Positions 1-26,324 are shown, numbered from the stretch's first letter. The stretch is 29,450 nucleotides of DNA from a bacterium (GCA_037139635.1 JBAXFW010000001.1:1-29450), one strand, 5' to 3'. Translations and numbers: made by a program. The notes: generated by a model from the letters alone, not told the origin.

Positions 1-185
1 GTGATGATTTTAGTTGTCCAGCTGGTACTTCAGGAAAATCGCCAAATTGTACTTGCGATAATAATGCCATTAATCCTATTGCTTGTACTATGTGTTCAAA
101 TGGGGCAACTAACCCCCCAGCCTGTGATGATTTTAGTTGTCCAGCTGGTACTTCAGGAAAATCGCCAAATTGTACTTGTGATAAT
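1..185 (+). repeat. 62-bp direct repeat, two copies (1-62 and 124-185), period 123 nt = 41 codons
   Basis: The copies match at 61/62 nt; the single difference is synonymous (TGC vs TGT, Cys). Confidence 0.97.
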
Positions 186-14853: not shown

Positions 14854-15723
14854 ATGTCTGAAGAATACATGAAGAAAAACTGGTTACCATTTTTCTTTTT
14901 TGGGCTACTGTTTTTAGCTTCATTTCTTTTTTATTTTGATTGGCAAAATTCTCACAAAAATTTTACTTTTGCAATGCTTGATATTGGGCAAGGAGATGCT
15001 TTATTTATCGAATCACCAACTGGAACCAAGGTGTTGATTGATGGTGGATCACCTAAAAAAATTCTTAGTGCTCTTACACAAGTATTATCTCCATTTGATC
15101 GAAAAATAGATGCAATTATTATTACCAATCCAGACGAAGATCATATCGGAGGATTGTTGGACGTTTTAAAATCATATAAAGTTGGTGAGGTTTTTGAATC
15201 AGGTACTTGGAGTGATTCAAAAATATATCAAACGATAGAAAATGAAATTAAGAATAAAAATATTCCTGATATTTTAGCGAAAAAAGGTATGCGTCTTGAT
15301 TTAGGTGGTGGGGCAGTGATAGATATATTATTTCCAGATAGAGATGTCACAAGTTGGGAGACAAATACTGGCTCAGTCGTAGCAAAGCTTTCTTATCAAG
15401 GAAAGTCATTTATGTTGACGGGGGACGCTCCATTTGAAACTGAAAAATTAATTTTGGCTGATAATCCTAGTTTACTTTTAAAAAGTGATGTTCTCAAGGT
15501 GGGGCACCACGGTTCGAGAAGTTCTTCTTCGGAAGAATTTTTGAAAGCCGTTGGGCCATCAATGGCATTGATTTCAGTTGGGAAAGATAATAAATATGGG
15601 CACCCAACAGAAGATACTTTAAGCAGGCTTTCAGCGGTCGGAGCTCAGATTTTCCGCACAGATTTGCTTGGTACAATAATTATAAAATGTGATAAGATTG
15701 GAGTATGCAAGATAAACAAATAG
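14854..15723 (+). CDS. ComEC-type metallo-beta-lactamase-fold protein (stand-alone C-terminal ComEC domain)
   Basis: N-terminal membrane anchor, LDIGQGDA, LIDGG, TNPDEDHIGG, NTGSVV, LTGD, LKVGHHGS, SVGKDNKYGHP, FRTD. Alternative start at ATG 14869. Confidence 0.9.
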   Translation: MSEEYMKKNWLPFFFFGLLFLASFLFYFDWQNSHKNFTFAMLDIGQGDALFIESPTGTKVLIDGGSPKKILSALTQVLSPFDRKIDAIIITNPDEDHIGGLLDVLKSYKVGEVFESGTWSDSKIYQTIENEIKNKNIPDILAKKGMRLDLGGGAVIDILFPDRDVTSWETNTGSVVAKLSYQGKSFMLTGDAPFETEKLILADNPSLLLKSDVLKVGHHGSRSSSSEEFLKAVGPSMALISVGKDNKYGHPTEDTLSRLSAVGAQIFRTDLLGTIIIKCDKIGVCKINK

Positions 15724-16925
15724 AAAAATTAATAAAATTAGAAGAAAAAAGACAAAAAAGTGTTATAAATCTTATCGCTTCTGAGAACTATGTTTCAAAC
15801 GATGTCCTAAAAGCAGTTGGCTCAAAACTTACCAATAAATACGCAGAAGGATATCCAGGACGAAGATATTATGGTGGCAATGAAATCATTGATAAAGTTG
15901 AAACTCTTTGCATGGAGCGTGCTTTGAAAGTTTTTAAATTAAAAAAAGAAGATTGGCATGTAAATGTGCAACTTCTCTCAGGTAGTCCTGCCAATTTTGC
16001 TTTGTATTCTGCACTTGTTCCTATCGGTGGCAAAATTATGGGAATGAAATTAACTTCAGGAGGGCACTTAACTCATGGCCATCCACTTTCGATGACCGGA
16101 AAACTTTGGAAGCCATTACAATTTGAACTTGATTCTGAAACTGAAGTTATAGATTATGAAGCTCTTAAAAAATTAGCTATCGCTGAAAAACCAGATATTA
16201 TTGTTTGTGGTTTTACGGCTTATCCAAGAGTTGTTGATTTTAAAAAGTTTCGAGAAATTGCTGACGCTGTGGTTTATCCTGACGGACGGAAGGGAGCGAT
16301 TCTTCATGCTGATATTTCACACTTTGCAGGATTGATTGCGGGGGGAGCATATCCATCTCCCTTTTTATATGCAGACTCAGTGATGACAACAACCCATAAA
16401 TCTCTTCGGGGCCCACGACAAGCAATTTTGTATGTTAAAAAAGATGACCCTTCGACCCCACTCGGGGCAAGGCGTGATTTTGATAAAAAATTAGATAAGA
16501 TGGTTATCCCAGGACTCTTTGGTGGACCACATGAAAACAATATTGCCGGTGTGGCCGTTGCTTTACAAGAAGCAATGAAGCCAGAATTTAAAAAGTATGC
16601 GCGTCAAATTATCAAGAACGCAAAAGTACTAGCCAAAGAATTACAAAAACTTGGCTGGCATATTATTTCAGGAGGTACTGATTCTCATTTAATCTTGATG
16701 GACACTTGGATGGAAGGAAAAGGAATATCTGGTAAAGAGGCAAGTATCAAATTAGAGAAGGCTGGAATTATTGTAAATATGAATACAATTCCAGGAGATA
16801 CAAGAAGTGTCATGGATCCATCTGGAGTTCGTCTTGGTACTTGTGCTGAAACCACCAGAGGAAAAAAAGAAAAAGATATGATTAAAATTGCAGTTAAGAT
16901 GGATAAAATTTTAAGAAGTAAATAA
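15705..16925 (+). CDS. glyA: Serine hydroxymethyltransferase
   Basis: LIASEN, NKYAEGYPGRRYYGG, SGSPAN, GGHLTHG, PLP-lysine motif TTTHKSLRGPR, GGTDSHL, SGVRLGT. Confidence 0.97.
   Translation: MQDKQIEKLIKLEEKRQKSVINLIASENYVSNDVLKAVGSKLTNKYAEGYPGRRYYGGNEIIDKVETLCMERALKVFKLKKEDWHVNVQLLSGSPANFALYSALVPIGGKIMGMKLTSGGHLTHGHPLSMTGKLWKPLQFELDSETEVIDYEALKKLAIAEKPDIIVCGFTAYPRVVDFKKFREIADAVVYPDGRKGAILHADISHFAGLIAGGAYPSPFLYADSVMTTTHKSLRGPRQAILYVKKDDPSTPLGARRDFDKKLDKMVIPGLFGGPHENNIAGVAVALQEAMKPEFKKYARQIIKNAKVLAKELQKLGWHIISGGTDSHLILMDTWMEGKGISGKEASIKLEKAGIIVNMNTIPGDTRSVMDPSGVRLGTCAETTRGKKEKDMIKIAVKMDKILRSK
16272..16294 (-). repeat. Degenerate short repeat element, reverse orientation, inside glyA
   Basis: Reverse complement CCCTTCCGTCCGTCAGGATAAAC resembles the 16448 and 23963 copies (CTTC...TC[A/G]GG). 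It coincides with an extra VYPDGRK peptide. Confidence 0.5.
16448..16471 (+). repeat. Short repeat element inside glyA
   Basis: CCCTTCGACCCCACTCGGGGCAAG (24 nt) encodes PSTPLGAR; closely matches 23963-23985. Confidence 0.7.
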
Positions 16926-16926
16926 T

Positions 16927-17355
16927 ATGACAGATCTTAGTAAAGACATCCAAGCTTGTGTCGGGGTAATGATTTTTAAAGACGGGAAAGTTTTATTGGG
17001 TAAAAGATGTGGTAAGCATGCCCCTGGTGAATATTCTTTCCCTGGTGGAAGAATTGAATACATGGAGAGTTTTTTAGATGCTGTAAAGAGGGAGACGCTA
17101 GAAGAGGCAGGAGTTAAAATAAAAAATATTAAATTTTTAAATGTCGCAAATATAAATAGGTATTCATATCGTCATGACATATCTACTCATTTTACAGCAG
17201 ATTGGGAAAGTGGTGAGCCTCAAGAGTTCCCCGAAGAGAGAATTAAAGAATGGAATTGGTATAGCTTAGATAATTTACCATCACCAATTTTTTATCCAAC
17301 ACAAATTGTTGTCGATTCTTATAAATCAGGAATAAATTTTTATGATAAAGAATAA
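16927..17355 (+). CDS. NUDIX hydrolase (MutT/NUDT15-like)
   Basis: GKVLLGKR and Nudix box GGRIEYMESFLDAVKRETLEEAGV. Confidence 0.9.
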   Translation: MTDLSKDIQACVGVMIFKDGKVLLGKRCGKHAPGEYSFPGGRIEYMESFLDAVKRETLEEAGVKIKNIKFLNVANINRYSYRHDISTHFTADWESGEPQEFPEERIKEWNWYSLDNLPSPIFYPTQIVVDSYKSGINFYDKE

Positions 17356-18049
17356 AAAATATAAAGGAAAATTAATTGTTATAGATGGGACAGATGGAAG
17401 TGGTAAGGCGACACAAGTGGCTTATTTGACTGAGCATTTAAAAAAAGATGGACATAAAGTTAAGGTTGTGGATTTCCCAGAATACTATAAAAATTTCTTC
17501 GGTAAATTTATTGGGCATTGTCTTTCTGAACAATATTATAATTTTCTTGGTGTTCATCCAAAAATTGCTTCATCGTTATATGCTGCTGACAGATGGGAAT
17601 CAAGTAAAGAGATGCGAGAGTGGCTGAAAAAAGGATATATCGTCATTGCAAACAGATATGTCTCAGCTAATCAGATTCACCAAGGGGGGAAAATTTCTAG
17701 TGCAAAAAAAAGAGCAGATTTTATTAAATGGCTAGACGAGATGGAGTATAGAGTTTATGGAATTCCAAGACCGGATATAACTTTGTATTTAAGTTTGCCC
17801 TTGAATATTGTTTTTGACCTTATAAAAGAACGAAATAGTAGTAAAATGAAAAGAGCCTATTTGAAAAATAAGAAAGACATATCTGAATCCGATCTTGATT
17901 ATCAAAAAAATTCTATTAAAAGTGCAATTTGGTTAGTAAAAAATGTTTCTAATTTTATAAAAATTGAATGTTCAGAAAAAGGAAAAATATTAACACGAGA
18001 ACAAGTGCATGATATGGTTTATAAAGAAGTTAAAAAAATATTTAAATGA
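17342..18049 (+). CDS. tmk: Thymidylate kinase
   Basis: P-loop IDGTDGSGKATQ, DFPEY, YAADR, ANRYVSAN, PRPDITLYL. Confidence 0.9.
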   Translation: MIKNKKYKGKLIVIDGTDGSGKATQVAYLTEHLKKDGHKVKVVDFPEYYKNFFGKFIGHCLSEQYYNFLGVHPKIASSLYAADRWESSKEMREWLKKGYIVIANRYVSANQIHQGGKISSAKKRADFIKWLDEMEYRVYGIPRPDITLYLSLPLNIVFDLIKERNSSKMKRAYLKNKKDISESDLDYQKNSIKSAIWLVKNVSNFIKIECSEKGKILTREQVHDMVYKEVKKIFK

Positions 18050-18519
18050 TAATTCCGATTGTAAATGAACAAGATGAAATAATAGGTTATAAAGATAGAA
18101 AGAATAGAAATATTGATGACATTGTTCGTGCAACTTGTCTTTGGGTTTCAGATAAAAATGATAATATTCTTTTAGCACAAAGAGCTTTTAGTAAAGAGCA
18201 TGATCCGGGGTTATGGGGACCATCAGCCGGAGGTACTGTTGAAGAAGGTGAAACATATGAATTAAATATTTTAAAAGAAGCTGAAGAGGAAATTGGTTTG
18301 ATAGGTTTTGATTTTATTAAAGGACCAAAAATTCGTGTTCCTTGGGGATTTGTTTGTATTTTTAATATAGTTGTAAATAATGATTTTGATTTTATTAAAC
18401 AAAATAATGAGGTAGAGCAAATAAAATGGTTTTCTAAAGAAGAACTATATTTTTTATTGAAAGAAAAACCAGAAATTTTTATTAAAAATTTTAAATTAAT
18501 GTATGAAAGTAAATATTAA
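18046..18519 (+). CDS. NUDIX hydrolase (IDI/YfcD-like)
   Basis: IPIVNEQDEIIG, ILLAQRA..K..DPGLW, Nudix box GGTVEEGETYELNILKEAEEEIGL. Confidence 0.88.
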   Translation: MIIPIVNEQDEIIGYKDRKNRNIDDIVRATCLWVSDKNDNILLAQRAFSKEHDPGLWGPSAGGTVEEGETYELNILKEAEEEIGLIGFDFIKGPKIRVPWGFVCIFNIVVNNDFDFIKQNNEVEQIKWFSKEELYFLLKEKPEIFIKNFKLMYESKY

Positions 18520-18937
18520 AAGAATTGAAAAAGATTTACCATTGCCAGAATACCAAACATCTGGAGCTGTGGCTTTTGATTTATATTCGCGTGTTGATGC
18601 AGTTATAAAACCAAAAACACTAGAAAGATTACCCACAAATGTTATTATTGAAATTCCGACAGGTTATATGTTGGAGATTAAAGATCGCTCAAGTACACTA
18701 AAGCGTAAAGGTTTGCTCGTCAGTACTGGTTTTATAGACAATGATTTTCATGGAGAATCTGATGAAATACTTTTACAAGTTTACAACATGACTGAAAATG
18801 ATGTAAAAGTAGATAAAGGGGAAAGACTTGGACAAGGTGCCTTTATTAAGGTTGAAACGGCGGTGTGGGAAGAAGTTGAAATAATGAAAGAAAATGGTCG
18901 TGGAGGTTTTGGTACAACAGGTGAAAGTGTCATATAA
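18503..18937 (+). CDS. dut: Trimeric dUTP diphosphatase
   Basis: Five dUTPase motifs: AVAFDL, DRSS, GFIDNDFHG, RLGQG, GRGGFGTTG. Confidence 0.95.
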   Translation: MKVNIKRIEKDLPLPEYQTSGAVAFDLYSRVDAVIKPKTLERLPTNVIIEIPTGYMLEIKDRSSTLKRKGLLVSTGFIDNDFHGESDEILLQVYNMTENDVKVDKGERLGQGAFIKVETAVWEEVEIMKENGRGGFGTTGESVI

Positions 18938-18948
18938 TAAGAATATAC

Positions 18949-20655
18949 ATGAAAGAGCAAATAGAAAAACAAATAAAAGAAGTGTTGAAAAATCTTGGAA
19001 TAAATGAAGAGATTAATTTTTCTGTTGAACACCCAGAGAGTTTTGTGAATGGAGATTATTCGACAAATGTAGCGATGGTATGTGCTAAAAAGATTGGTAA
19101 AAATCCAAGAGAATTAGCAGAAAATATAAAACTAGAATTGGAAAAGAATATTCTAAAAGAAATTTCTAAAGTGGAAGTGGCTGGTGCTGGGTTTATAAAT
19201 TTCTATTTATCACGAGAATTTTTTACTGAGAGTGTAAAACAAATTTTAGAAAAAAAAGAGAACTGGGGGAAGAATGAAATTCTTAATGGTAAAAAAGTAA
19301 TGGTTGAATATACTCAACCAAATCCTTTTAAGCCTTTTCATATTGGACACCTTATGAGTAATGCGATAGGGGAATCGATATCTCGAGTCGTGGAATTTTC
19401 TGGAGCAAAGACTATTCGGGCAAACTATCAAGGAGATGTGGGCCCGCATGTAGCAAAAGCAATATATGGGCTAAAAAAATTTGGAATGCCAGATAGTAGT
19501 TTAATTGTTTCTGCCCAGGCGCAATACATAGGTGAATGTTATTCAAAGGGAAGCAATTTATATGATACAGATGAAAATGCTAAAAAAGAAATAGATGAAA
19601 TAAATAAAAAAATCTATGACAAGAGTGATGAAGAAATAAATAAAATATATGACTGGGGAAGGAAAGTGACACTGGATGCATTTGAAGAGATATATAAATT
19701 ACTTGGTACAAAATTTGATTATTATTTTTTTGAAAGCGAGATGGCAGTAATCGGAGAGAAAATAGTAAAAGAAAATGTTCCAAAGATTTTCGAAGAGTCT
19801 GATGGAGCTATCATTTTCCATGGAGAAAAATATGACCCTAAATTGCATACACGAGTTTTTGTAAACTCAAAAGGTTTGCCTACTTATGAAACAAAAGAGA
19901 TTGGCCTTACTTTGACTAAGTTTGAAAAAGAAAATCCAGATATATCTATCGTCACGACAGCGATAGAGCAAGCAGAATATATGAAAGTAGTCCAGAAAGC
20001 TATTTCGCTTATGCATCCCGACTTAGAAAGTAGAATGAAACATATAACTCATGGAATGATGCGTTTAGCTACGGGGAAAATGTCATCCCGAAAAGGGAAT
20101 GTAATCACGGGAGAATCACTTTTGCGAGATTCTATGGATGTTGTTTTGGAAAAAATCACAGAGCGTGATTTTTCTGATATAGAAAAAAGGGAAATTTCTG
20201 AAATTGTCGGTGTTGCAGCATTGAAGTATTCAATTTTAAAATCATCTCTTGGTAGTGATATTGTTTATGATTTTGAAAAATCAATTTCTTTTGAAGGAGA
20301 TTCTGGCCCATATTTACAGTACACAGCAGTACGCGCAAATTCAATCTTGGAGAAGTCAAAAGTTTTTAATCAAAAAAATGGTAATGATATTCCTGTGGAA
20401 ATCACAAATTTGGAAAAAATACTTTATCAATTTTCCGAAGTTATTGAACTTTCATATCAAAAATTGGAGCCACACCACATTGCTACTTATCTCACTTTAC
20501 TTGCGAGTGCATTTAATACTTTTTATGCCAATACAAAAATACTAAGTGATGAAAATAAATATATGGTTTATCATTTAGAATTAGTGAACGCTTTTTACCA
20601 AACCATGAAGAATGGTCTTTATTTGCTAGGCATCGAAACACCAAAGAGAATGTAA
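18949..20655 (+). CDS. argS: Arginine--tRNA ligase
   Basis: GDYSTNVAM, AGAGFINF, EYTQPNP..PFHIGH, KMSSRKG, FEGDSGPYLQY and DALR-type C-terminal domain. Confidence 0.97.
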   Translation: MKEQIEKQIKEVLKNLGINEEINFSVEHPESFVNGDYSTNVAMVCAKKIGKNPRELAENIKLELEKNILKEISKVEVAGAGFINFYLSREFFTESVKQILEKKENWGKNEILNGKKVMVEYTQPNPFKPFHIGHLMSNAIGESISRVVEFSGAKTIRANYQGDVGPHVAKAIYGLKKFGMPDSSLIVSAQAQYIGECYSKGSNLYDTDENAKKEIDEINKKIYDKSDEEINKIYDWGRKVTLDAFEEIYKLLGTKFDYYFFESEMAVIGEKIVKENVPKIFEESDGAIIFHGEKYDPKLHTRVFVNSKGLPTYETKEIGLTLTKFEKENPDISIVTTAIEQAEYMKVVQKAISLMHPDLESRMKHITHGMMRLATGKMSSRKGNVITGESLLRDSMDVVLEKITERDFSDIEKREISEIVGVAALKYSILKSSLGSDIVYDFEKSISFEGDSGPYLQYTAVRANSILEKSKVFNQKNGNDIPVEITNLEKILYQFSEVIELSYQKLEPHHIATYLTLLASAFNTFYANTKILSDENKYMVYHLELVNAFYQTMKNGLYLLGIETPKRM

Positions 20656-20671
20656 ATTTATATTAATTAAT

Positions 20672-22420
20672 ATGAAAAACAAAACACCAAATTTTGATAA
20701 AGCAATAGGTGAAATTTTAGAGCACTTAATTCCACACAAAAGAGTTTGCACGTGGAAGGACAAGAATCCTCACTGCGAAGGAGATTTTGATATTGAAGAA
20801 GGAGACATAAATTTTTTGAAAATATTTAAGGTGCCACCACCTAATTTTTGTCCTACGTGCAGAAGAATGAGAAGACTAACGAATATGAATTTTTCAAGGC
20901 TTTTCAAGCGTAAATGTGACGTACCAGGGCATGATGAAATGATGATATCAGTTCTCCCTGAAGAATGTCCTTTCCCAGTATATGATTATAAATATTTTAT
21001 TGATGATAATTTTGATGCTTTTTCTTTTGGTATTAATTACAAAGATACAGATAATCCAATAAAAAGCCTACTTTCATTTCGAAAAAAGTTTCCAATGCCT
21101 TCATTTTTAAATCGTGATCCATCATCTATCAATAGTGAATATTCAAACGGAGGTAGAAATTTAAAAAATGGGTATTATGTTTTTGCTTGTTACGAAACAG
21201 AGAATGCTTGGTATTGTGCTCAGCTTCACAAGACTCGTAATATTATGGATTCTTTAGTCATCACTGACTCAGAGTTTGTATATAAATCTGTTTTTTCTAA
21301 TCATCTTTATAAAGTATTCTTTGCATATTTTTCAATAAATTGTACTGATAGTATGTTTTTATTTGATTGTCGTAATTGCACTAATTGTTTTGGTTGTGTA
21401 AATCTACGTAATGCAAAATATTGTGTTTACAATAAACAATTTTCAAAAGAAGAATATGAGATTTTTATGTCAGAAGTTTATCCGTTAACAGCTACAAAAA
21501 TCTCTTCTTTTGAAGAAAAATTTTGGCAATTAGTTAAAACTCTTCCGATGAATGGTACTAGGAATGTCGCATCAGTTGATGTTTTTGGTGTGAATATAAA
21601 AAATTCAAAAAACTTGCTTGATGTGATAGATGCAAATAATTCTGAAAATGTTCGTCATTCTGATGGAGTTGTTTTACATAAAGATTCTATGGACATTTTA
21701 TTTTCAGGTGGTTCTTCGAGTGTGATATATATGTCTACTAACATAGGTTCTCATTCGACTCGAGTTAAATTTTCGACTTCATCGAAGTTTTGCGCAGATT
21801 GCGAGTTTGTTTTTAATTCGAAAAATTTAAATAATTGTTTTATGTGTTTTGGCTTACAAAATAAATCTTATTGTGTGTTTAATAAACAATATTCTCCCGA
21901 GGAGTATTTTAAAATTGTAGATAATATTAAGACAAAAATGCTTGGTAGGGGAGAATATGGTGACGGACTTGGTTTAGAATTTTCTGCTCAAGCATATAAT
22001 TTTTCTATCGCTCACTTTGCTTATCCACTTAATACTAAAGAGATAAATATGCTTGGCGGATATGAGGCGAAAGAGCCTGAGACAAATGTTGGTAATATCG
22101 AAATTATAAAGTATGCTGATTTACCTCAAAATATTGACGAAACACCTTTAGATATTTTAGAGAAAGCAATTTTATGTGAAAAAAGTAATAGACCTTTTAG
22201 AATTACTGCTTCTGAGCTCCAGTTTTATAAAGCAATGAAATTACCTCTTCCAAACATACATCCATTGTTAAGAATTGAAAAGATTTTAAAGCTTGTTAAG
22301 ACTGGGAAAAAATACAAAGCGACTTGTGTGAAGTGTGGGGAAAAAATAGAAACAGTTTTTGATCCAGAAGATAAATATATTTTTTATTGCGAAAAATGTT
22401 ATCAGCAGGAAATATATTAG
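20672..22420 (+). CDS. Cys-rich zinc-ribbon/repeat protein of unknown function (family I associate with CPR genomes)
   Basis: N-terminal C..C knuckles (CPTCRRMRR), two copies of NCFxCxxLxNxxYCVxNKQxSxEEY, LCEKSNRPFRI, C-terminal CVKC...YCEKCY. Confidence 0.8.
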   Translation: MKNKTPNFDKAIGEILEHLIPHKRVCTWKDKNPHCEGDFDIEEGDINFLKIFKVPPPNFCPTCRRMRRLTNMNFSRLFKRKCDVPGHDEMMISVLPEECPFPVYDYKYFIDDNFDAFSFGINYKDTDNPIKSLLSFRKKFPMPSFLNRDPSSINSEYSNGGRNLKNGYYVFACYETENAWYCAQLHKTRNIMDSLVITDSEFVYKSVFSNHLYKVFFAYFSINCTDSMFLFDCRNCTNCFGCVNLRNAKYCVYNKQFSKEEYEIFMSEVYPLTATKISSFEEKFWQLVKTLPMNGTRNVASVDVFGVNIKNSKNLLDVIDANNSENVRHSDGVVLHKDSMDILFSGGSSSVIYMSTNIGSHSTRVKFSTSSKFCADCEFVFNSKNLNNCFMCFGLQNKSYCVFNKQYSPEEYFKIVDNIKTKMLGRGEYGDGLGLEFSAQAYNFSIAHFAYPLNTKEINMLGGYEAKEPETNVGNIEIIKYADLPQNIDETPLDILEKAILCEKSNRPFRITASELQFYKAMKLPLPNIHPLLRIEKILKLVKTGKKYKATCVKCGEKIETVFDPEDKYIFYCEKCYQQEIY

Positions 22421-22443
22421 TTTATTTGCCTATTTTAGAATAT

Positions 22444-22480
22444 AAATAAAATGCCTCGCTCAAAAAATTGAGCAAGGCAT
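22444..22480 (-). terminator. Intrinsic terminator oriented for a minus-strand transcript
   Basis: 13-bp stem ATGCCTCGCTCAA/TTGAGCAAGGCAT with one mismatch, preceded on + by AAATAAA (a U-rich tail on -); no T-tract follows on +. Confidence 0.6.
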
Positions 22481-22585
22481 GGAAGTACGACCTTGGCAGA
22501 TTGTGTTGAGTGAAGTCGATGAGACTCTCACTGAGAGCACCGTTTACCCCAAGGAAGTTGAACTACAGTCATAAAGAACAATTCA
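22444..22585 (-). ncRNA. Candidate ~140-nt small RNA divergent from the ileS T-box
   Basis: Predicted promoter TTGCAA-17-TAGCAT, predicted terminator, GC-rich core (44/90 G+C over 22481-22570) that can fold into a long rod. No family recognised. Confidence 0.35.
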
Positions 22586-22590
22586 TTTAG

Positions 22591-22641
22591 ATGCTACACC
22601 TAATTGATTTTTCTTGCAAATTACGTATTTACTGTTATTAT
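22591..22641. promoter_or_regulatory. Promoter of the ileS T-box leader, possibly bidirectional
   Basis: Palindromic TTGCAA at 22614-22619. Plus strand: 16 nt to TGtTATTAT (hexamer 22636-22641), then 6 nt to the base of stem I. Minus strand: 17 nt to TAGCAT (plus ATGCTA 22591-22596). Confidence 0.55.
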
Positions 22642-22647
22642 TTAGAA

Positions 22648-22831
22648 GTACGAAGAAGGAGACATCACTCCTGAGTACGGGGAAGAAATGTTTTGCGCGA
22701 TTCCGCCTTCGTTAACACTACGGCGAGACAAAGTAGAACCCCATAAATGAGAAGCAAGCAAGGTGGTACCACGAGAGAAACTCGTCCTTGTATAGCAATT
22801 ATTTTAATTGTTGTACGCGGACGAGTTTTTT
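22648..22831 (+). promoter_or_regulatory. Ile-specific T-box riboswitch upstream of ileS
   Basis: Stem I GUAC-GAAGAA-GGAG-[ACAUCA]-CUCC-UGA-GUAC with an AUC (Ile) specifier at 22664-22666. Stem II GGGGAAGAA...GUAGAACCCC. Antiterminator AAGG-UGGUACC-ACGAG-[AGAAA]-CUCGU-CCUU. Confidence 0.92.
22778..22831 (+). terminator. T-box attenuator terminator
   Basis: AAACTCGTCC (22778-22787) pairs with GGACGAGTTT (22819-22828) and extends through a long inner stem; T6 at 22826-22831. Mutually exclusive with the antiterminator. Confidence 0.88.
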
Positions 22832-22862
22832 ATTTAATTATTATTAATTTAAATTATAAAAT

Positions 22863-25800
22863 ATGGAAAAATCAAGTAATGCACTAAGGGAAGAGGAGAC
22901 TTTAAAATTCTGGAAAGAGAATAATATTTTTCAGAAATCTTTAGATAAAGAAGCACCACGAGGTAAATATGTTTTTTATGATGGTCCTCCTTTTGCTACG
23001 GGGACTCCTCACTATGGGCATATACTTGGTAGCACTGCAAAAGATGTCATCGGACGATATCAAACGATGCGAGGGTTTACGGTGCCGAGACGTTGGGGTT
23101 GGGATTGTCACGGATTGCCGATTGAAAATATTGTTGAAAAAGATTTAGGAATCTCTGGTAAAAAGGCAATTGAAGAATTGGGTATTGATAAATTTGTGGA
23201 ACACGCTCGAAGTAAGGTATTGACCTATGTCGCTGTTTGGGAAAAGACTATTGATCGTATTGGGCGATGGGTTGATTTTAGTAATTCATATAAGACGATG
23301 GATAATACTTTCATTGAAAGTGTTTGGTGGGCGCTTGGTGAATTAAATAAAAAAGGATTGCTTTACGAAGGAGTAAGAGTACTCGCATATTGTCCTCGTT
23401 GCGAGACGCCAATAGCAAACTCTGAAATTGCTATGGATAATAGTTATAAAGATATAACCGATATTTCTGTTTATGTAAAATTTAAGATATTGTCCTCGCC
23501 TGATATGTACCTTCTTGCCTGGACTACGACTCCGTGGACATTGCCAGGGAATACTGCAATTGCAATAAATAAAGACATAATTTATGTAAAAGCAAAAGTA
23601 GGAAACGATATTCTTATTTTAGCAAAAGAAACTGTCGCCAATGTTTTGAAGGATAAAGAATTTAGTATTCTTGGAGAAATAAAAGGTTCTGAATTTATTG
23701 GTCTTTCATATGAGCCGGTATTTAATTATTACAAAAATATTGATATGCCAAATAAAGAAAATATTTGGAAAGTTTGGCATGCAGATTTTGTGACTCTTGA
23801 TAAAGGTACAGGTATTGCTCATGAAGCACCCGCTTTCGGTGAAGAAGATATGGGACTTGCAAAAGAGCACAATATTCCATTTATAAGACACGTCGAACCA
23901 AATGGAACGTTTTCAAAAGAAGTTACAGATTTTGTTGGAATTAAAGTAAAACCAAAAGATGACTCTTCGGGTACCTCAGGGCAAGTCGGCCAATCGACTG
24001 ATGTTTTGATAATTAAATATTTAGCAGGAACCGGAAGTTTATTTGCGAAAGAAAAAATAATTCACTCATATCCTCATTGTTATCGTTGTGAGACTCCACT
24101 TTTGTATTATGCACTACCATCTTGGTTTGTGAATATACAAAAAGTTAAAAGTGATATGTTGAAAAATGCAGAAACCATGAATTGGGTTCCTGCGCATTTA
24201 AAAGATGGGCGTTTTCGAAATACTATGGAGGCTGCTCCTGATTGGACTATTTCACGAAATCGCTATTGGGCAAGCCCACTTCCTTTTTGGAAATCAGAAT
24301 CTGGAAAAATAATGTTTGTAAATTCTATTGATGACTTAAAAGCTAAAACTAAAAAATCAGGTAATAAGTATTTTGTCATGCGACACGGTGGGGCAGAAAG
24401 TAACATCAAAGGAATTATAAGTTCAAAGGTTGAAGACGTAGACCACTTAACTGAAGAGGGCAAACAACAAGTTTTAGCTTCCGCTTTAGAATTAAAAGAT
24501 AAAAAAATTGATTTAATTATTTATTCAGATTTCATGCGAACGAAAGAAACTTCTCAAATTGTGAAAAAAGAATTAAATATCCAAGACGAGAATTATTTTT
24601 CAGATGAGCGTTTGTGGGAATTGGGAGCCGGAGTTTTTGATGGTAAGACTTGGAGAGAATATTTAGACATAAGAGAGAAAGAAGATAGATATTATTACAA
24701 ACCTGAGGGAGGAGAGTCGCACCATGATGTTAAATTGAGAATTGCAGAATTTCTATATGATTTAGAAAATAAATATAAAGGCAAAAATATTCTCATTATT
24801 ACCCATGAATTACCAGCACGGATGTTTTTGGTTGGCACAAAAGGTATTGATGATACTGAGACAATACTTGAACTAGAAAATAAAATAAAGAATTTCAACA
24901 ATGCAGAAGTAGCAGAAGTACCATTTGTTCCTTTACCTCACAACCGTGACCATAACCTTGATTTACATAGACCATATATTGATGATATAACTCTTGTCGA
25001 TGAGCTAGGAGAGGAGTATAAAAGAGTTCCTGAAGTTATTGATTGTTGGTTTGAGTCAGGTTCTATGCCTTTTGCGCAAGATCATTTTCCATTTGAAAAT
25101 CCAAATTGGCAGAAAGAAAATTTTCCTGCAGGATTTGTTGCAGAATATATTGCTCAGACACGTACTTGGTTTTATTACACCCATGTTATTTCTTCGACCT
25201 TATTTAATGAGGCGCCATTCAAAAATGTCGTCACGACTGGAACGATACTTGCTGAGGACGGACAGAAAATGTCAAAGTCTAAAAATAATTTTCCAGATCC
25301 ATGGATTTTATTTGATAAATACGGAGTAGATGCACTTAGATTTTATTTGATGTCGTGTCCAGTAATGAAAGGGGAAGATATTAATTTCTTAGAAAAAGCA
25401 GTACAAGATATTGCCAACAAAATAGTTGGAAGATTGAGTAATGTTTTAGCTTTTTATGAGCTTTACCGAGAAAGAGAATTAGAAACAGAAGAATGTAAAA
25501 ATCCCAGTAATGTTTTGGATCAATGGATCCTTTCTCGCCTAAATGAATTGGTAGTAGAAGTTACTAGTGGCATGGAAGCTTATGATATGGCTCAAGCTAC
25601 TCGACCATTTGAATTATTTATCGAGGATCTTTCTACTTGGTATTTGCGTCGTTCAAGAGATGCTATTAAAGAAGGAAATAAAGAAACTAAAAAAGTTTTA
25701 TGGCATGTGCTGAAAACCATAGCTGTGTTGTTGGCGCCTCTCACTCCTTTTGTCTCAGAAAGTATTTGGCAAAAATTAAAAAAAGAAAACGAAGCAGAAA

Positions 25801-26324
25801 GTGTCCATTTGGTGAATTGGCCGGAAGCAGGAGAAATAGATGAAGTTGTAATAGAAAATATGGTAGAAGTGAGAAGAATTGTTTCTCTGGGATTAGAAGC
25901 TAGACAGAAAGCTAGTATCAAGGTTCGTCAGCCTCTTGGACAATTGCGAATAAAAAATTACGAATTAGGAATTGAGTACGGAGAATTAATAAAAGATGAA
26001 TTGAATGTAAAAGAGGTAATTGAAGATAGAAATATTGAAGAAGTAGTTTTACTTAATACAAATATTACTGAAGATCTAAAAAAGGAAGGGGACTATCGTG
26101 AGCTCGTAAGAGCAATTCAAGATATTCGTAAAAAAGAGGGACTCACTCCAAGTGATGTCATAACGCTATCACTTGAGACAAACGAAGAAGGGAAAAAACT
26201 TGTACAAAAATTCGAAAATGAAATAAAGAAAACCGTCTTGGCTTCTATGATAAAATTTGAAGTTATTTCAGAGGAAGAAATAAAAATCAATGATTTGGTA
26301 TTTAAAATATCAGTTCAAAAATAA
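22863..26324 (+). CDS. ileS: Isoleucine--tRNA ligase, type 2, with an inserted histidine-phosphatase domain
   Basis: FYDGPPFATGTPHYGH, GWDCHGLP, WTTTPWTLP, GTGIAH (editing), WTISRNRYWASP, AEYIAQTRTWFY, KMSKS, WYLRRSR and IleRS2-type C-terminus EGDYRELVRAIQDIRK. Insert RHG...THE at ~24364-24925. Confidence 0.97.
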   Translation: MEKSSNALREEETLKFWKENNIFQKSLDKEAPRGKYVFYDGPPFATGTPHYGHILGSTAKDVIGRYQTMRGFTVPRRWGWDCHGLPIENIVEKDLGISGKKAIEELGIDKFVEHARSKVLTYVAVWEKTIDRIGRWVDFSNSYKTMDNTFIESVWWALGELNKKGLLYEGVRVLAYCPRCETPIANSEIAMDNSYKDITDISVYVKFKILSSPDMYLLAWTTTPWTLPGNTAIAINKDIIYVKAKVGNDILILAKETVANVLKDKEFSILGEIKGSEFIGLSYEPVFNYYKNIDMPNKENIWKVWHADFVTLDKGTGIAHEAPAFGEEDMGLAKEHNIPFIRHVEPNGTFSKEVTDFVGIKVKPKDDSSGTSGQVGQSTDVLIIKYLAGTGSLFAKEKIIHSYPHCYRCETPLLYYALPSWFVNIQKVKSDMLKNAETMNWVPAHLKDGRFRNTMEAAPDWTISRNRYWASPLPFWKSESGKIMFVNSIDDLKAKTKKSGNKYFVMRHGGAESNIKGIISSKVEDVDHLTEEGKQQVLASALELKDKKIDLIIYSDFMRTKETSQIVKKELNIQDENYFSDERLWELGAGVFDGKTWREYLDIREKEDRYYYKPEGGESHHDVKLRIAEFLYDLENKYKGKNILIITHELPARMFLVGTKGIDDTETILELENKIKNFNNAEVAEVPFVPLPHNRDHNLDLHRPYIDDITLVDELGEEYKRVPEVIDCWFESGSMPFAQDHFPFENPNWQKENFPAGFVAEYIAQTRTWFYYTHVISSTLFNEAPFKNVVTTGTILAEDGQKMSKSKNNFPDPWILFDKYGVDALRFYLMSCPVMKGEDINFLEKAVQDIANKIVGRLSNVLAFYELYRERELETEECKNPSNVLDQWILSRLNELVVEVTSGMEAYDMAQATRPFELFIEDLSTWYLRRSRDAIKEGNKETKKVLWHVLKTIAVLLAPLTPFVSESIWQKLKKENEAESVHLVNWPEAGEIDEVVIENMVEVRRIVSLGLEARQKASIKVRQPLGQLRIKNYELGIEYGELIKDELNVKEVIEDRNIEEVVLLNTNITEDLKKEGDYRELVRAIQDIRKKEGLTPSDVITLSLETNEEGKKLVQKFENEIKKTVLASMIKFEVISEEEIKINDLVFKISVQK
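23963..23985 (+). repeat. Short repeat element inside ileS
   Basis: CTCTTCGGGTACCTCAGGGCAAG; same flanking words as the glyA copy at 16448, including the preceding GATGA. Confidence 0.7.
25942..25976 (+). repeat. Phased heptamer tract inside ileS
   Basis: AATTGCG AATAAAA AATTACG AATTAGG AATTGAG: five AAT-starting 7-mers, one identical to the unit at 337-357. Confidence 0.55.

What the first reader, a model, noticed from the sequence alone, without database searches (positions are those of the whole stretch)
16272..23985. One short DNA element found three times inside essential genes, in different frames and orientations
Seen: glyA GATGAC-CCTTCG-ACCCCA-CTCGGGGCAAG (16443-16471) and ileS GATGAC-TCTTCG-GGTAC-CTCAGGGCAAG (23958-23985) share both flanking words. 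The 3' word is read in different frames (LGAR vs SGQV). A decayed reverse copy at 16272-16294 gives VYPDGRK. Each falls where the protein looks longer than typical homologues. Similarity across frames and strands indicates a DNA-level element rather than a protein motif. Inference: a ~24-bp mobile or recombinogenic repeat that seeds in-frame peptides in housekeeping enzymes, by an unknown mechanism.
Basis: partly seen in the sequence, partly recalled or inferred. Interest (0 to 1): 0.7.

Follow-up and report, generated by a model that had tools for sequence, protein, structure and literature searches.

The report
Tiny 24-base repeat inserted inside genes
Two essential genes of this tiny-genome (Patescibacteria) bacterium each carry an in-frame copy of a 24-base repeat that turns up almost letter for letter in many bacterial phyla, so it looks like one of the smallest mobile DNA elements known; how it moves is unknown.

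Summary
The two forward copies are real and belong to a genuine DNA-level family. The consensus is (A/G)AC-CCTTCGAC-N2-3-G-CTCAGGGCAAG-C.

- **Copy number:** this 825-kb genome holds about 15 copies, against about 0.7 in shuffled genomes.
- **Insertions with empty sites:** the glyA copy (16449-16472) and the ileS copy (23964-23987) are clean +24-nt in-frame insertions. The closest relatives have empty sites and there is no target duplication. dnaG and miaA carry the same +24-nt gain; a UvrD-like helicase (tandem pair) and ftsK hold copies not compared with orthologues.
- **Spread:** half of 61 genomes of the genus hold the 11-base right arm. It is nearly always inside genes, in sense orientation, in all three frames, and the same loops are hit repeatedly. 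The exact 20-base core also occurs in Acidobacteriota, Chloroflexota, Cyanobacteria, Bacteroidota, Planctomycetota and others.
- **Third copy:** the "decayed reverse copy" (16272-16292) is a real, older 21-nt insertion. Its likeness to the element is not significant.
- **Shape and mobiliser:** the core is not a hairpin. It does not flank the genome's two RAYT-like transposase genes. Within the genus it co-occurs with neither Y1 transposases nor reverse transcriptases, so the mobiliser is unknown.

The closest known kinds are the cyanobacterial small dispersed repeats (SDRs) and the in-frame Rickettsia and REP elements. This scan has noted the same element before in other CPR genomes.

The parts
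15705..16925 (+). glyA (serine hydroxymethyltransferase), host gene of two insertions
   Evidence: Pfam SHMT, E 3e-147; ORF.
16449..16472 (+). Element copy 1: 24-nt in-frame insertion CCTTCGAC-CCCA-CTCGGGGCAAG-G, read PSTPLGAR
   Evidence: The site is empty in G222, G221, G247 and 10 further relatives, and holds a decayed copy in G017. Profile hit E 0.09 genome-wide. It lies in a loop between strand 240-245 and helix 259-265 of the AlphaFold2 model. It is present without gaps in contigs of about 93%-identical strains from other ponds.
16443..16448 (+). GATGAC before copy 1: ancestral K-K-D-(D) target codons, not part of the insertion
   Evidence: Relatives with empty sites read AAA AAA GAT/GAC NNN at this place.
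16272..16292 (+). Older 21-nt in-frame insertion (VYPDGRK).
   Evidence: Present in G000, G222, G221, G247 and G016 and absent from 11 other relatives. Not found by the profile; alignment p about 0.04. It is a well-ordered loop or hairpin with pLDDT 90-96.
22863..26324 (+). ileS (isoleucyl-tRNA synthetase), host gene
   Evidence: Pfam tRNA-synt_1 and Anticodon_1.
23964..23987 (+). Element copy 2: 24-nt in-frame insertion TCTTCGG-GTAC-CTCAGGGCAAG-TC, read SSGTSGQV
   Evidence: G222 reads GAA GAT | GGT CAA TCA ACA where G000 reads GAT GAC | 24 nt | GGC CAA TCG ACT. G008 and G247 are also empty. The exact 11-mer CTCAGGGCAAG occurs 7 times in the genome; the other 6 are family copies. Profile E 0.14.
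23958..23963 (+). GATGAC before copy 2: ancestral K-(D/E)-D target codons
   Evidence: AAA GAY GAY or GAA GAT is conserved in relatives with empty sites.

Best explanation
The glyA (16449-16472) and ileS (23964-23987) sequences are two copies of a cosmopolitan, non-autonomous mini-element. It is about 24 nt long. A 9-base left arm (CCCTTCGAC) and a 12-13-base right arm (GCTCAGGGCAAGC) are separated by 2-3 free bases.

**Shown.**
- It is a DNA-level family, dispersed over the genome.
- Copies appear as precise +24-nt gains at sites that are empty in close relatives, with no target-site duplication.
- They lie in surface loops of housekeeping proteins.
- Intergenic copies occur in both orientations. 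Coding copies are almost always in sense orientation and in one of three open frames: DPSTxSGQA, PFDxAQGKP, or LRLxSGQA / LRQAQGK.

**Inferred.**
- New copies are made at new sites by trans-acting machinery, regardless of orientation.
- In these gene-dense genomes most insertions land in genes. Selection then keeps only those that add a whole number of codons, hold no stop and give a small hydrophilic peptide in a tolerant loop. One antisense frame holds TGA.
- Copies then either decay toward AT (G017 glyA; G000 dnaG) or are re-seeded or exchanged between relatives.

The mobilising machinery is not identified. The genome's own Y1/RAYT-like transposases and reverse transcriptases are not supported as mobilisers.
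For: **Family in this genome.** The two-arm pattern finds 17 sites against 0-2 in shuffles. The profile finds about 14.

**Empty versus filled sites, each a net +24 nt.**
- glyA
- ileS
- dnaG and miaA

**Hosts.** SHMT, IleRS, DnaG, MiaA, a UvrD-like helicase with a tandem pair, and FtsK.

**Genus.**
- CTCAGGGCAAG occurs in 31 of 61 genomes, with 62 hits against 1 control hit.
- About 45 of 52 fetched hits carry the independent left arm.
- Nearly all lie in long ORFs in sense orientation and use three frames.

**Recurrent loops.**
- GAPDH is filled in 6 of 30 orthologues.
- dnaG is filled in G000 and G228.
- glyA is hit at a third site in G228.
- ileS is hit at other sites in G017 and G220.

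**Wider spread.**
- Order: the exact pattern occurs in 19 of 201 genomes from 19 genera, with no control hits.
- Cross-phylum: at least 120 stretches hold the exact 20-base core.

**Orientation.** Intergenic copies in G000 are 6 sense and 4 antisense relative to their neighbours. Coding copies are 7 of 7 sense.

**Structure.** Both glyA inserts fall in loops of the AlphaFold2 model.

**Not an assembly artefact.** Independent pond and lake contigs, including about 93%-identical strains, cover the glyA inserts without gaps.
Against: - No mobiliser was found.
  - The two Y1_Tnp genes are flanked by other palindromes, not by this element.
  - In the genus the element is no commoner with Y1_Tnp (25 of 31 against 23 of 30) or with reverse transcriptase (16 of 31 against 13 of 30).
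  - G254 has 5 copies and neither gene family was found there, though that genome is 91% complete.
- No presence/absence polymorphism was seen in near-identical strains, so current activity is not shown.
- The core has no hairpin (z about 0) and no target duplication, so it fits no known transposition chemistry.
- The arms are identical across phyla, and across copies at the same loop whose spacers differ. This could instead mean selection on the sequence itself, or gene conversion.
- The glyA tree is unresolved. Independent gain, precise loss and recombination therefore cannot be told apart.
Confidence: 0.8

Rival explanations
1. The 24-mer is a functional DNA or RNA motif kept by selection, for example a binding site for a conserved protein. 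Its spread reflects selection and recombination rather than selfish mobility.
For: - The arms are letter-identical across very distant phyla.
- Copies in the same GAPDH and other loops keep identical arms while their 2-3-base spacers differ.
- The G000 glyA copy is near-consensus although the homologous G017 copy has decayed.
Against: - Copy number is only 0-7 per genome, and half the genus lacks an intact right arm.
- Copies do decay: G017 glyA and G000 dnaG.
- Positions are scattered in unrelated genes and intergenic spacers, with no common placement relative to starts or stops.
- There is no stable fold and no Rfam family.
- The GAPDH and genus copies were picked by an exact right arm, so their intactness is partly ascertainment.
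Confidence: 0.12
2. The element does not transpose in this lineage. A few old insertions are passed among relatives by homologous recombination of gene segments, and copies are homogenised by gene conversion. This is the 'recombinogenic' half of the reader's idea.
For: - glyA and ileS have different nearest relatives. G017 is 82% identical in GlyA but 45% in IleRS. G008 is 79% identical in IleRS but 53% in GlyA, with synteny kept.
- The insert distributions do not follow an obvious tree.
- An earlier scan note (e1-847057) reached the same view in another genome.
Against: - Recombination cannot create copies at unrelated loci such as glyA, ileS, dnaG, miaA, the helicase, ftsK and intergenic spacers.
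- It cannot explain the same 24-mer in many phyla.
- The arms are too short (9 and 12 nt) for ordinary RecA-dependent conversion. This last point rests on established knowledge, not on a test here.
Confidence: 0.15
3. It is a peptide-level motif (DPSTxSGQA), selected for a protein function such as a modification or flexible-linker signal, and the DNA likeness is secondary.
For: - Coding copies are almost all in sense orientation, and most use the DPSTxSGQA frame.
- The older VYPDGRK insert is conserved as a peptide.
Against: - Three reading frames give unrelated peptides.
- About 10 copies in G000 are intergenic, in both orientations.
- GC-rich codons (CCT TCG ... GGG CAA) are kept in a 33% GC genome. 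The decayed G017 copy keeps part of the peptide with AT-rich codons.
Confidence: 0.03
4. It is chance resemblance between two variable loops, or an assembly or adapter artefact.
For: Within the window alone the pair is not an outlier.
Against: - Genome, genus, order and cross-phylum counts compare with zero or one control hit.
- Independent assemblies and runs hold it.
- Copies are in frame and some are decayed.
Confidence: 0.01

Closest known systems
Small dispersed repeats (SDR1-8) of Nostoc punctiforme and relatives (Elhai et al. 2008, Genome Res 18:1484; known to me from memory and from citations in PMC3116915, PMC4390886 and PMC13756078)
   Same: - The size matches: SDRs are 21-27 nt.
- Both are dispersed, near-identical copies that interrupt otherwise conserved sequence.
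- Neither encodes a protein or has an identified mobiliser.
- SDRs are associated with heptamer tandem repeats. Here 17% of cross-phylum copies lie in 7-periodic flanks against 5% of controls.
- The core is present in Nostocales genomes: Nodularia, Anabaena and Dolichospermum.
   Different: - SDRs were described only in heterocystous cyanobacteria. This 24-mer is found in at least nine phyla.
- In Patescibacteria it sits mainly in frame inside housekeeping genes.
- I could not check whether it is identical to one of SDR1-8, because the paper is not held.
Rickettsia palindromic elements (RPE; Ogata et al. 2000, from my own knowledge) and intragenic REPs (Di Nocera et al. 2013, PMC3733652)
   Same: - Both are selfish-looking short repeats found in frame inside known proteins, including replication and repair genes, and presumably tolerated in loops.
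- CGTC-type REPs also lack a dedicated transposase.
   Different: - RPE-1 is 100-150 bp and palindromic.
- Tagged REPs have 8-9-bp or 5-13-bp stems and a GTAG or CGTC tag.
- This core has no stable hairpin and no such tag.
- It is only 24 nt long and is conserved across phyla rather than being lineage-specific.
REP/REPIN elements mobilised by RAYT (Y1/HUH) transposases (Bertels & Rainey 2011, PMC3116915)
   Same: - Both are short (about 20 nt), non-coding, dispersed repeats.
- The genome holds two RAYT-like genes. One is flanked by its own REP-like palindrome.
   Different: - This element does not flank those genes.
- It is not palindromic.
- It does not form inverted doublets in this genome.
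- It does not co-occur with Y1_Tnp within the genus.

Membership tests
REP/REPIN (RAYT-mobilised) | Imperfect palindrome that folds into a stable hairpin | tested here: not met
   Consensus cores fold at -1.6 to -1.9 kcal/mol, z about 0 to +0.3 against shuffles. Only the miaA copy forms a 9-bp stem, and it needs its target's own AGCT palindrome to do so.
REP/REPIN (RAYT-mobilised) | Copies flank the cognate RAYT gene | tested here: not met
   The C5 Y1 gene is flanked by three copies of TACAAGGGTAACCCTTGTA. The C77 gene has another hairpin upstream. Neither is flanked by this element.
REP/REPIN (RAYT-mobilised) | Co-occurrence of repeat family and Y1/RAYT gene across genomes | tested here: inconclusive
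   In the order sample 16 of 19 carriers have Y1_Tnp, against 105 of 182 non-carriers. In the genus it is 25 of 31 against 23 of 30. G254 has 5 copies and no Y1 found; G003 has 11 Y1 genes and no copy.
GTAG/CGTC-tagged REP super-families (Di Nocera 2013) | Terminal GTAG or CGTC tag, an 8-9-bp (or 5-13-bp) stem, and a short loop | tested here: not met
   The sequence shows no such tag. The only stem is CCCT/AGGG, 4 bp with an 11-12-nt loop.
Rickettsia palindromic elements | In-frame insertion into conserved protein genes, with orthologues lacking it | tested here: met
   glyA, ileS, dnaG and miaA show empty sites.
Rickettsia palindromic elements | About 100-150-bp palindromic unit restricted to Rickettsia | tested here: not met
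   The unit is 24 nt, non-palindromic and present in many phyla.
Small dispersed repeats (SDR) | 21-27-nt dispersed near-identical copies interrupting conserved sequence | tested here: met
Small dispersed repeats (SDR) | Association with tandem heptamer repeats | tested here: inconclusive
   Among cross-phylum copies, 14 of 82 have 7-periodic flanks against 4.7% of controls. This was not seen around the coding copies of this genome.
Small dispersed repeats (SDR) | Sequence identity to one of SDR1-8 | not testable with these tools
   Elhai et al. 2008 is not held.
MITE | Terminal inverted repeats plus target-site duplication | tested here: not met
   No duplication is seen at glyA, ileS or dnaG. 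At miaA the flanking AGCT is already doubled in empty sites. The arms are only a loose inverted match, CCCT..GAC against GCTC..AGGG.
DNA uptake sequences (DUS/USS) | Hundreds to thousands of copies per genome, arising by substitution without length change | tested here: not met
   There are 0-7 intact copies per genome, and copies are +24-nt insertions.

The most novel reading that the evidence does not exclude
A single 24-base sequence, with fixed arms and a free 2-3-base centre, is propagated in at least nine bacterial phyla. It has no hairpin, no target duplication and no linked transposase or reverse transcriptase. This would imply a still unknown, widely shared insertion process, for example templated repair or an RNA- or protein-guided copying step. 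That process could write eight codons into essential genes, making this the smallest mobile element class and a general source of loop insertions in streamlined genomes.
Probability: 0.25. Interest if true: 0.85.

Novelty: new variant of a known kind. Interest (0 to 1): 0.66.

Why it matters
**Protein evolution.** If short fixed DNA words can be written in frame into essential enzymes, they are an unrecognised source of protein loop evolution and of alignment indels. In the smallest bacterial genomes almost any insertion must land in a gene.

**An unexplained mechanism.** The same 24-mer occurs in phyla as far apart as Cyanobacteria, Acidobacteriota and Patescibacteria. No hairpin, target duplication or linked transposase goes with it, so known transposition mechanisms do not explain it. 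Cultivable carriers such as Anabaena, Nodularia and Flavobacterium make the question testable.

**Annotation.** The element explains recurrent odd peptide strings (PSTSSGQA, PFDKLRAS, LRQAQGK) in predicted proteins. It also warns against reading such inserts as functional motifs.

Tried and rejected
- **Window-only significance.** Self-BLAST against shuffles does not single out the pair. The case rests on genome-wide data.
- **Reverse copy at 16272.** Profile search, alignment against seeds and a fuzzy search for other copies gave no support.
- **Hairpin or REP model.** Folding gives z about 0.
- **RAYT link.** Flanks of both Y1 genes and the genus co-occurrence do not support it. The weak excess in the order sample is not independent evidence.
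- **Reverse-transcriptase link.** There is no association in the genus.
- **Gain/loss mapping on a glyA codon tree.** Bootstraps of 34-74% are too low to use.
- **Read-level search for presence/absence polymorphism.** Only contigs were available. No 24-nt gap was seen at either site in four runs, and no contig listed in the output spans the ileS copy.
- **Expression.** No RNA holder was listed.
- **Rfam.** Gathering-threshold search of the window and three contigs with intergenic copies found no family.
- **Literature by peptide strings** (FDKLR, STSSGQ, LRQAQD). Nothing relevant was found.
- **Elhai et al. 2008.** It could not be read, so identity with an SDR family is open.
- **Flank context across phyla.** Some copies sit in heptamer arrays (17% against 5%) or in the loop of a flank-formed stem of 7 bp or more (7% against 1%). 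Both are minorities, so neither defines the element.


Full report
**Setting.** The window is contig C1 of an 825-kb, 117-contig, 33% GC genome. Its relatives are 0.4-1.3-Mb genomes. Public records with the same element are named Patescibacteria/CPR. Runs holding the window are lake and pond metagenomes. glyA is 15705-16925 (Pfam SHMT) and ileS is 22863-26324.

**Observation.**
- An unbiased self-comparison of the window does not single the pair out: 24 bits, while shuffles reach 32-36 bits. The window alone could not settle the matter.

**The family in this genome.**
These share a fuller consensus, CCCTTCGAC-N3-4-GCTCAGGGCAAGC.
- A loose two-arm pattern finds 17 sites against 0-2 in ten shuffled genomes.
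- CTCAGGGCAAG is among the most repeated GC-rich 11-mers of the genome.
- A profile built from 50 copies ranks the glyA and ileS sites 11th and 12th genome-wide (E 0.09 and 0.14). Both hits sit exactly on the inserted bases.

Host ORFs of the coding copies, beyond the two in the window:
- DnaG primase
- MiaA
- a UvrD-like helicase-nuclease carrying a tandem pair
- FtsK

About ten further copies are intergenic, for example upstream of pnp and atpD.

**Insertions with empty sites.**
- *glyA site 1.* G000 reads AAA AAA GAT GAC | CCTTCGACCCCACTCGGGGCAAGG | CGT GAT. Thirteen relatives, including the closest (G222, G221 and G247 at 85-87% protein identity), read AAA AAA GAY NNN AGR/CGT with nothing between. 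G017 has a 24-nt AT-shifted remnant at the same place.
- *ileS.* G222 reads GAA GAT | GGT CAA TCA ACA. G000 reads GAT GAC | TCTTCGGGTACCTCAGGGCAAGTC | GGC CAA TCG ACT. G008 and G247 are also empty.
- *dnaG and miaA.* Each shows the same net +24 nt, with 13 of 13 and 12 of 13 relatives empty. The miaA copy sits in the middle of an AGCT-AGCT palindrome.
- No case shows a target-site duplication.
- The GATGAC shared by glyA and ileS is mostly the ancestral K-D-D codons of the two targets. Across copies only the C just before CCTTCGAC is constant.

**The third site.** Bases 16272-16292 (VYPDGRK) form a real 21-nt insertion. It is shared with G222, G221, G247 and G016 and is absent from 11 other relatives. 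It diverges mostly at synonymous positions, with two conservative residue changes, so it is older and now constrained as protein. Its reverse complement resembles the element only weakly: there is no profile hit, the alignment p is about 0.04, and there is no other copy. I treat it as an insertion of unproven origin.

**Structure.** In an AlphaFold2 model of GlyA (mean pLDDT 83), both inserts lie between secondary-structure elements. Site 3 lies between helix 179-188 and strand 199-203. Site 1 lies between strand 240-245 and helix 259-265.

**Genus and order.**
- CTCAGGGCAAG occurs in 31 of 61 genomes of the genus, with 62 hits against 1 hit for the reversed control and 0-7 copies per genome.
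- Of 52 fetched hits, about 45 carry the left arm, which played no part in the selection.
- Nearly all lie in long ORFs in sense orientation. They are read as DPSTxSGQA, PFDxAQGKP, LRLxSGQA or LRQAQGK, depending on frame and on a 3- or 4-base centre.
- The same loops recur. GAPDH is filled in 6 of 30 orthologues. dnaG is filled in G000 and G228. glyA is hit at a third site in G228. ileS is hit at other sites in G017 and G220.
- In the order, the exact two-arm pattern occurs in 19 of 201 genomes from 19 genera, with no control hit.

**Orientation.** In G000 the intergenic copies are 6 sense and 4 antisense relative to neighbouring genes and GC skew. All 7 coding copies are sense. One antisense frame holds TGA, and the other two give Cys- or Leu-rich peptides. 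I infer that insertion is indifferent to orientation and that selection on the encoded peptide filters the coding copies.

**Across phyla.**
- The exact 20-base core was found in at least 120 stretches before the scan hit its limit.
- Carriers include Acidobacteriota, Chloroflexota, Cyanobacteria (Nodularia, Anabaena, Dolichospermum, Microcystis), Bacteroidota, Planctomycetota, Nitrospirota, Verrucomicrobiota, Proteobacteria and many Patescibacteria.
- Some copies lie inside 7-base tandem repeats (17% against 5% of controls). Some lie in the loop of a stem formed by their flanks (7% against 1% for stems of 7 bp or more). Both are minorities.

**Mechanism.**
- The core does not fold and matches no Rfam family.
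- The genome has two RAYT-like Y1 transposase genes. They are flanked by other palindromes.
- Y1_Tnp is somewhat commoner among carriers in the order sample: 16 of 19 against 105 of 182.
- Within the genus there is no association: 25 of 31 against 23 of 30. G254 has five copies and no Y1 found; G003 has eleven Y1 genes and no copy.
- Reverse transcriptase shows no association either: 16 of 31 against 13 of 30.
- Contigs from four other lake and pond runs cover the glyA inserts without gaps, including strains about 7% divergent. They show no form lacking an insert at either site. So the glyA insert is fixed there, and current mobility is not shown.
- The glyA tree is too poorly resolved to separate repeated gain, precise loss and recombination.
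- glyA and ileS have different nearest relatives despite conserved synteny, so gene exchange within the genus does occur.

**Comparison with known kinds.**
- It works like the in-frame Rickettsia RPEs and intragenic REPs (PMC3733652). It fails their defining palindrome, tag and size.
- By size, by lacking a coding partner and by its partial link with heptamer repeats, it is closest to the cyanobacterial small dispersed repeats. These were described as very small mobile repeated elements of 21-27 nt (Elhai et al. 2008, from memory and as cited). I could not compare sequences with them.
- I found no paper describing this 24-mer, its cross-phylum spread or its in-frame habit in Patescibacteria.
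- Earlier notes of this scan describe the same core in other CPR genomes. I reached the family, the empty sites and the cross-phylum spread independently before reading them. They gave me the Di Nocera paper as a lead.

**Verdict.** This is a new variant of a known kind, with an unknown mobiliser. Interest is moderate to high.

Noticed in passing
window 24372-24851 (IleRS residues 504-663): A histidine-phosphatase domain (Pfam His_Phos_1, E 2e-25, RHG motif) is embedded in the catalytic core of IleRS. The same insert is present in all 19 relatives whose ORF covers the region.
   Followed up: partly
window 1-62 and 124-185: A 62-nt direct repeat, 98% identical, lies at the start of the contig inside the open-ended ORF 3-332.
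   Followed up: no
G000 contig C5 12035-12795 (L080 1264-1282, 1951-1970, 2010-2030): A RAYT-like Y1 transposase gene is flanked by three copies of the perfect palindrome TACAAGGGTAACCCTTGTA. Its 11-mers occur 6-8 times in the genome, which makes it a classical REP-RAYT-like pair distinct from the element studied.
   Followed up: partly
G000 genome-wide: Another repeated palindrome, GACCCAAATTGGGTC (about 8 copies), and the repeated words TCCCGTTAGAA (10 copies) and GGTGAGCCACC (7 copies) appear in the k-mer table.
   Followed up: no
glyA and ileS of the window against relatives: The two genes keep synteny but have different nearest relatives. GlyA is 82% identical to G017 and 53% to G008. IleRS is 79% identical to G008 and 45% to G017. 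This points to allele replacement or recombination within the genus.
   Followed up: partly
G000 C5:2331 and C42:2915: Two degenerate element-like sequences (CATTCGACTTyGCTCATGrCAgG) sit inside a longer repeat of about 75 nt, upstream of two ORFs.
   Followed up: no
L076 (G001 miaA) and L058, L054 (G006, G016 dnaG): Other relatives carry different short inserts at the same miaA and dnaG loops, for example LRLRSGSST in G001 MiaA. These loops are recurrent insertion or retention sites.
   Followed up: no
G000 C9:7700-7780: The intergenic copy upstream of atpD is bracketed by a direct repeat of about 14 nt, TAATAATTTTTAAT. The second C9 copy has similar flanks. This may be a longer duplicated unit or a local duplication.
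   Followed up: no
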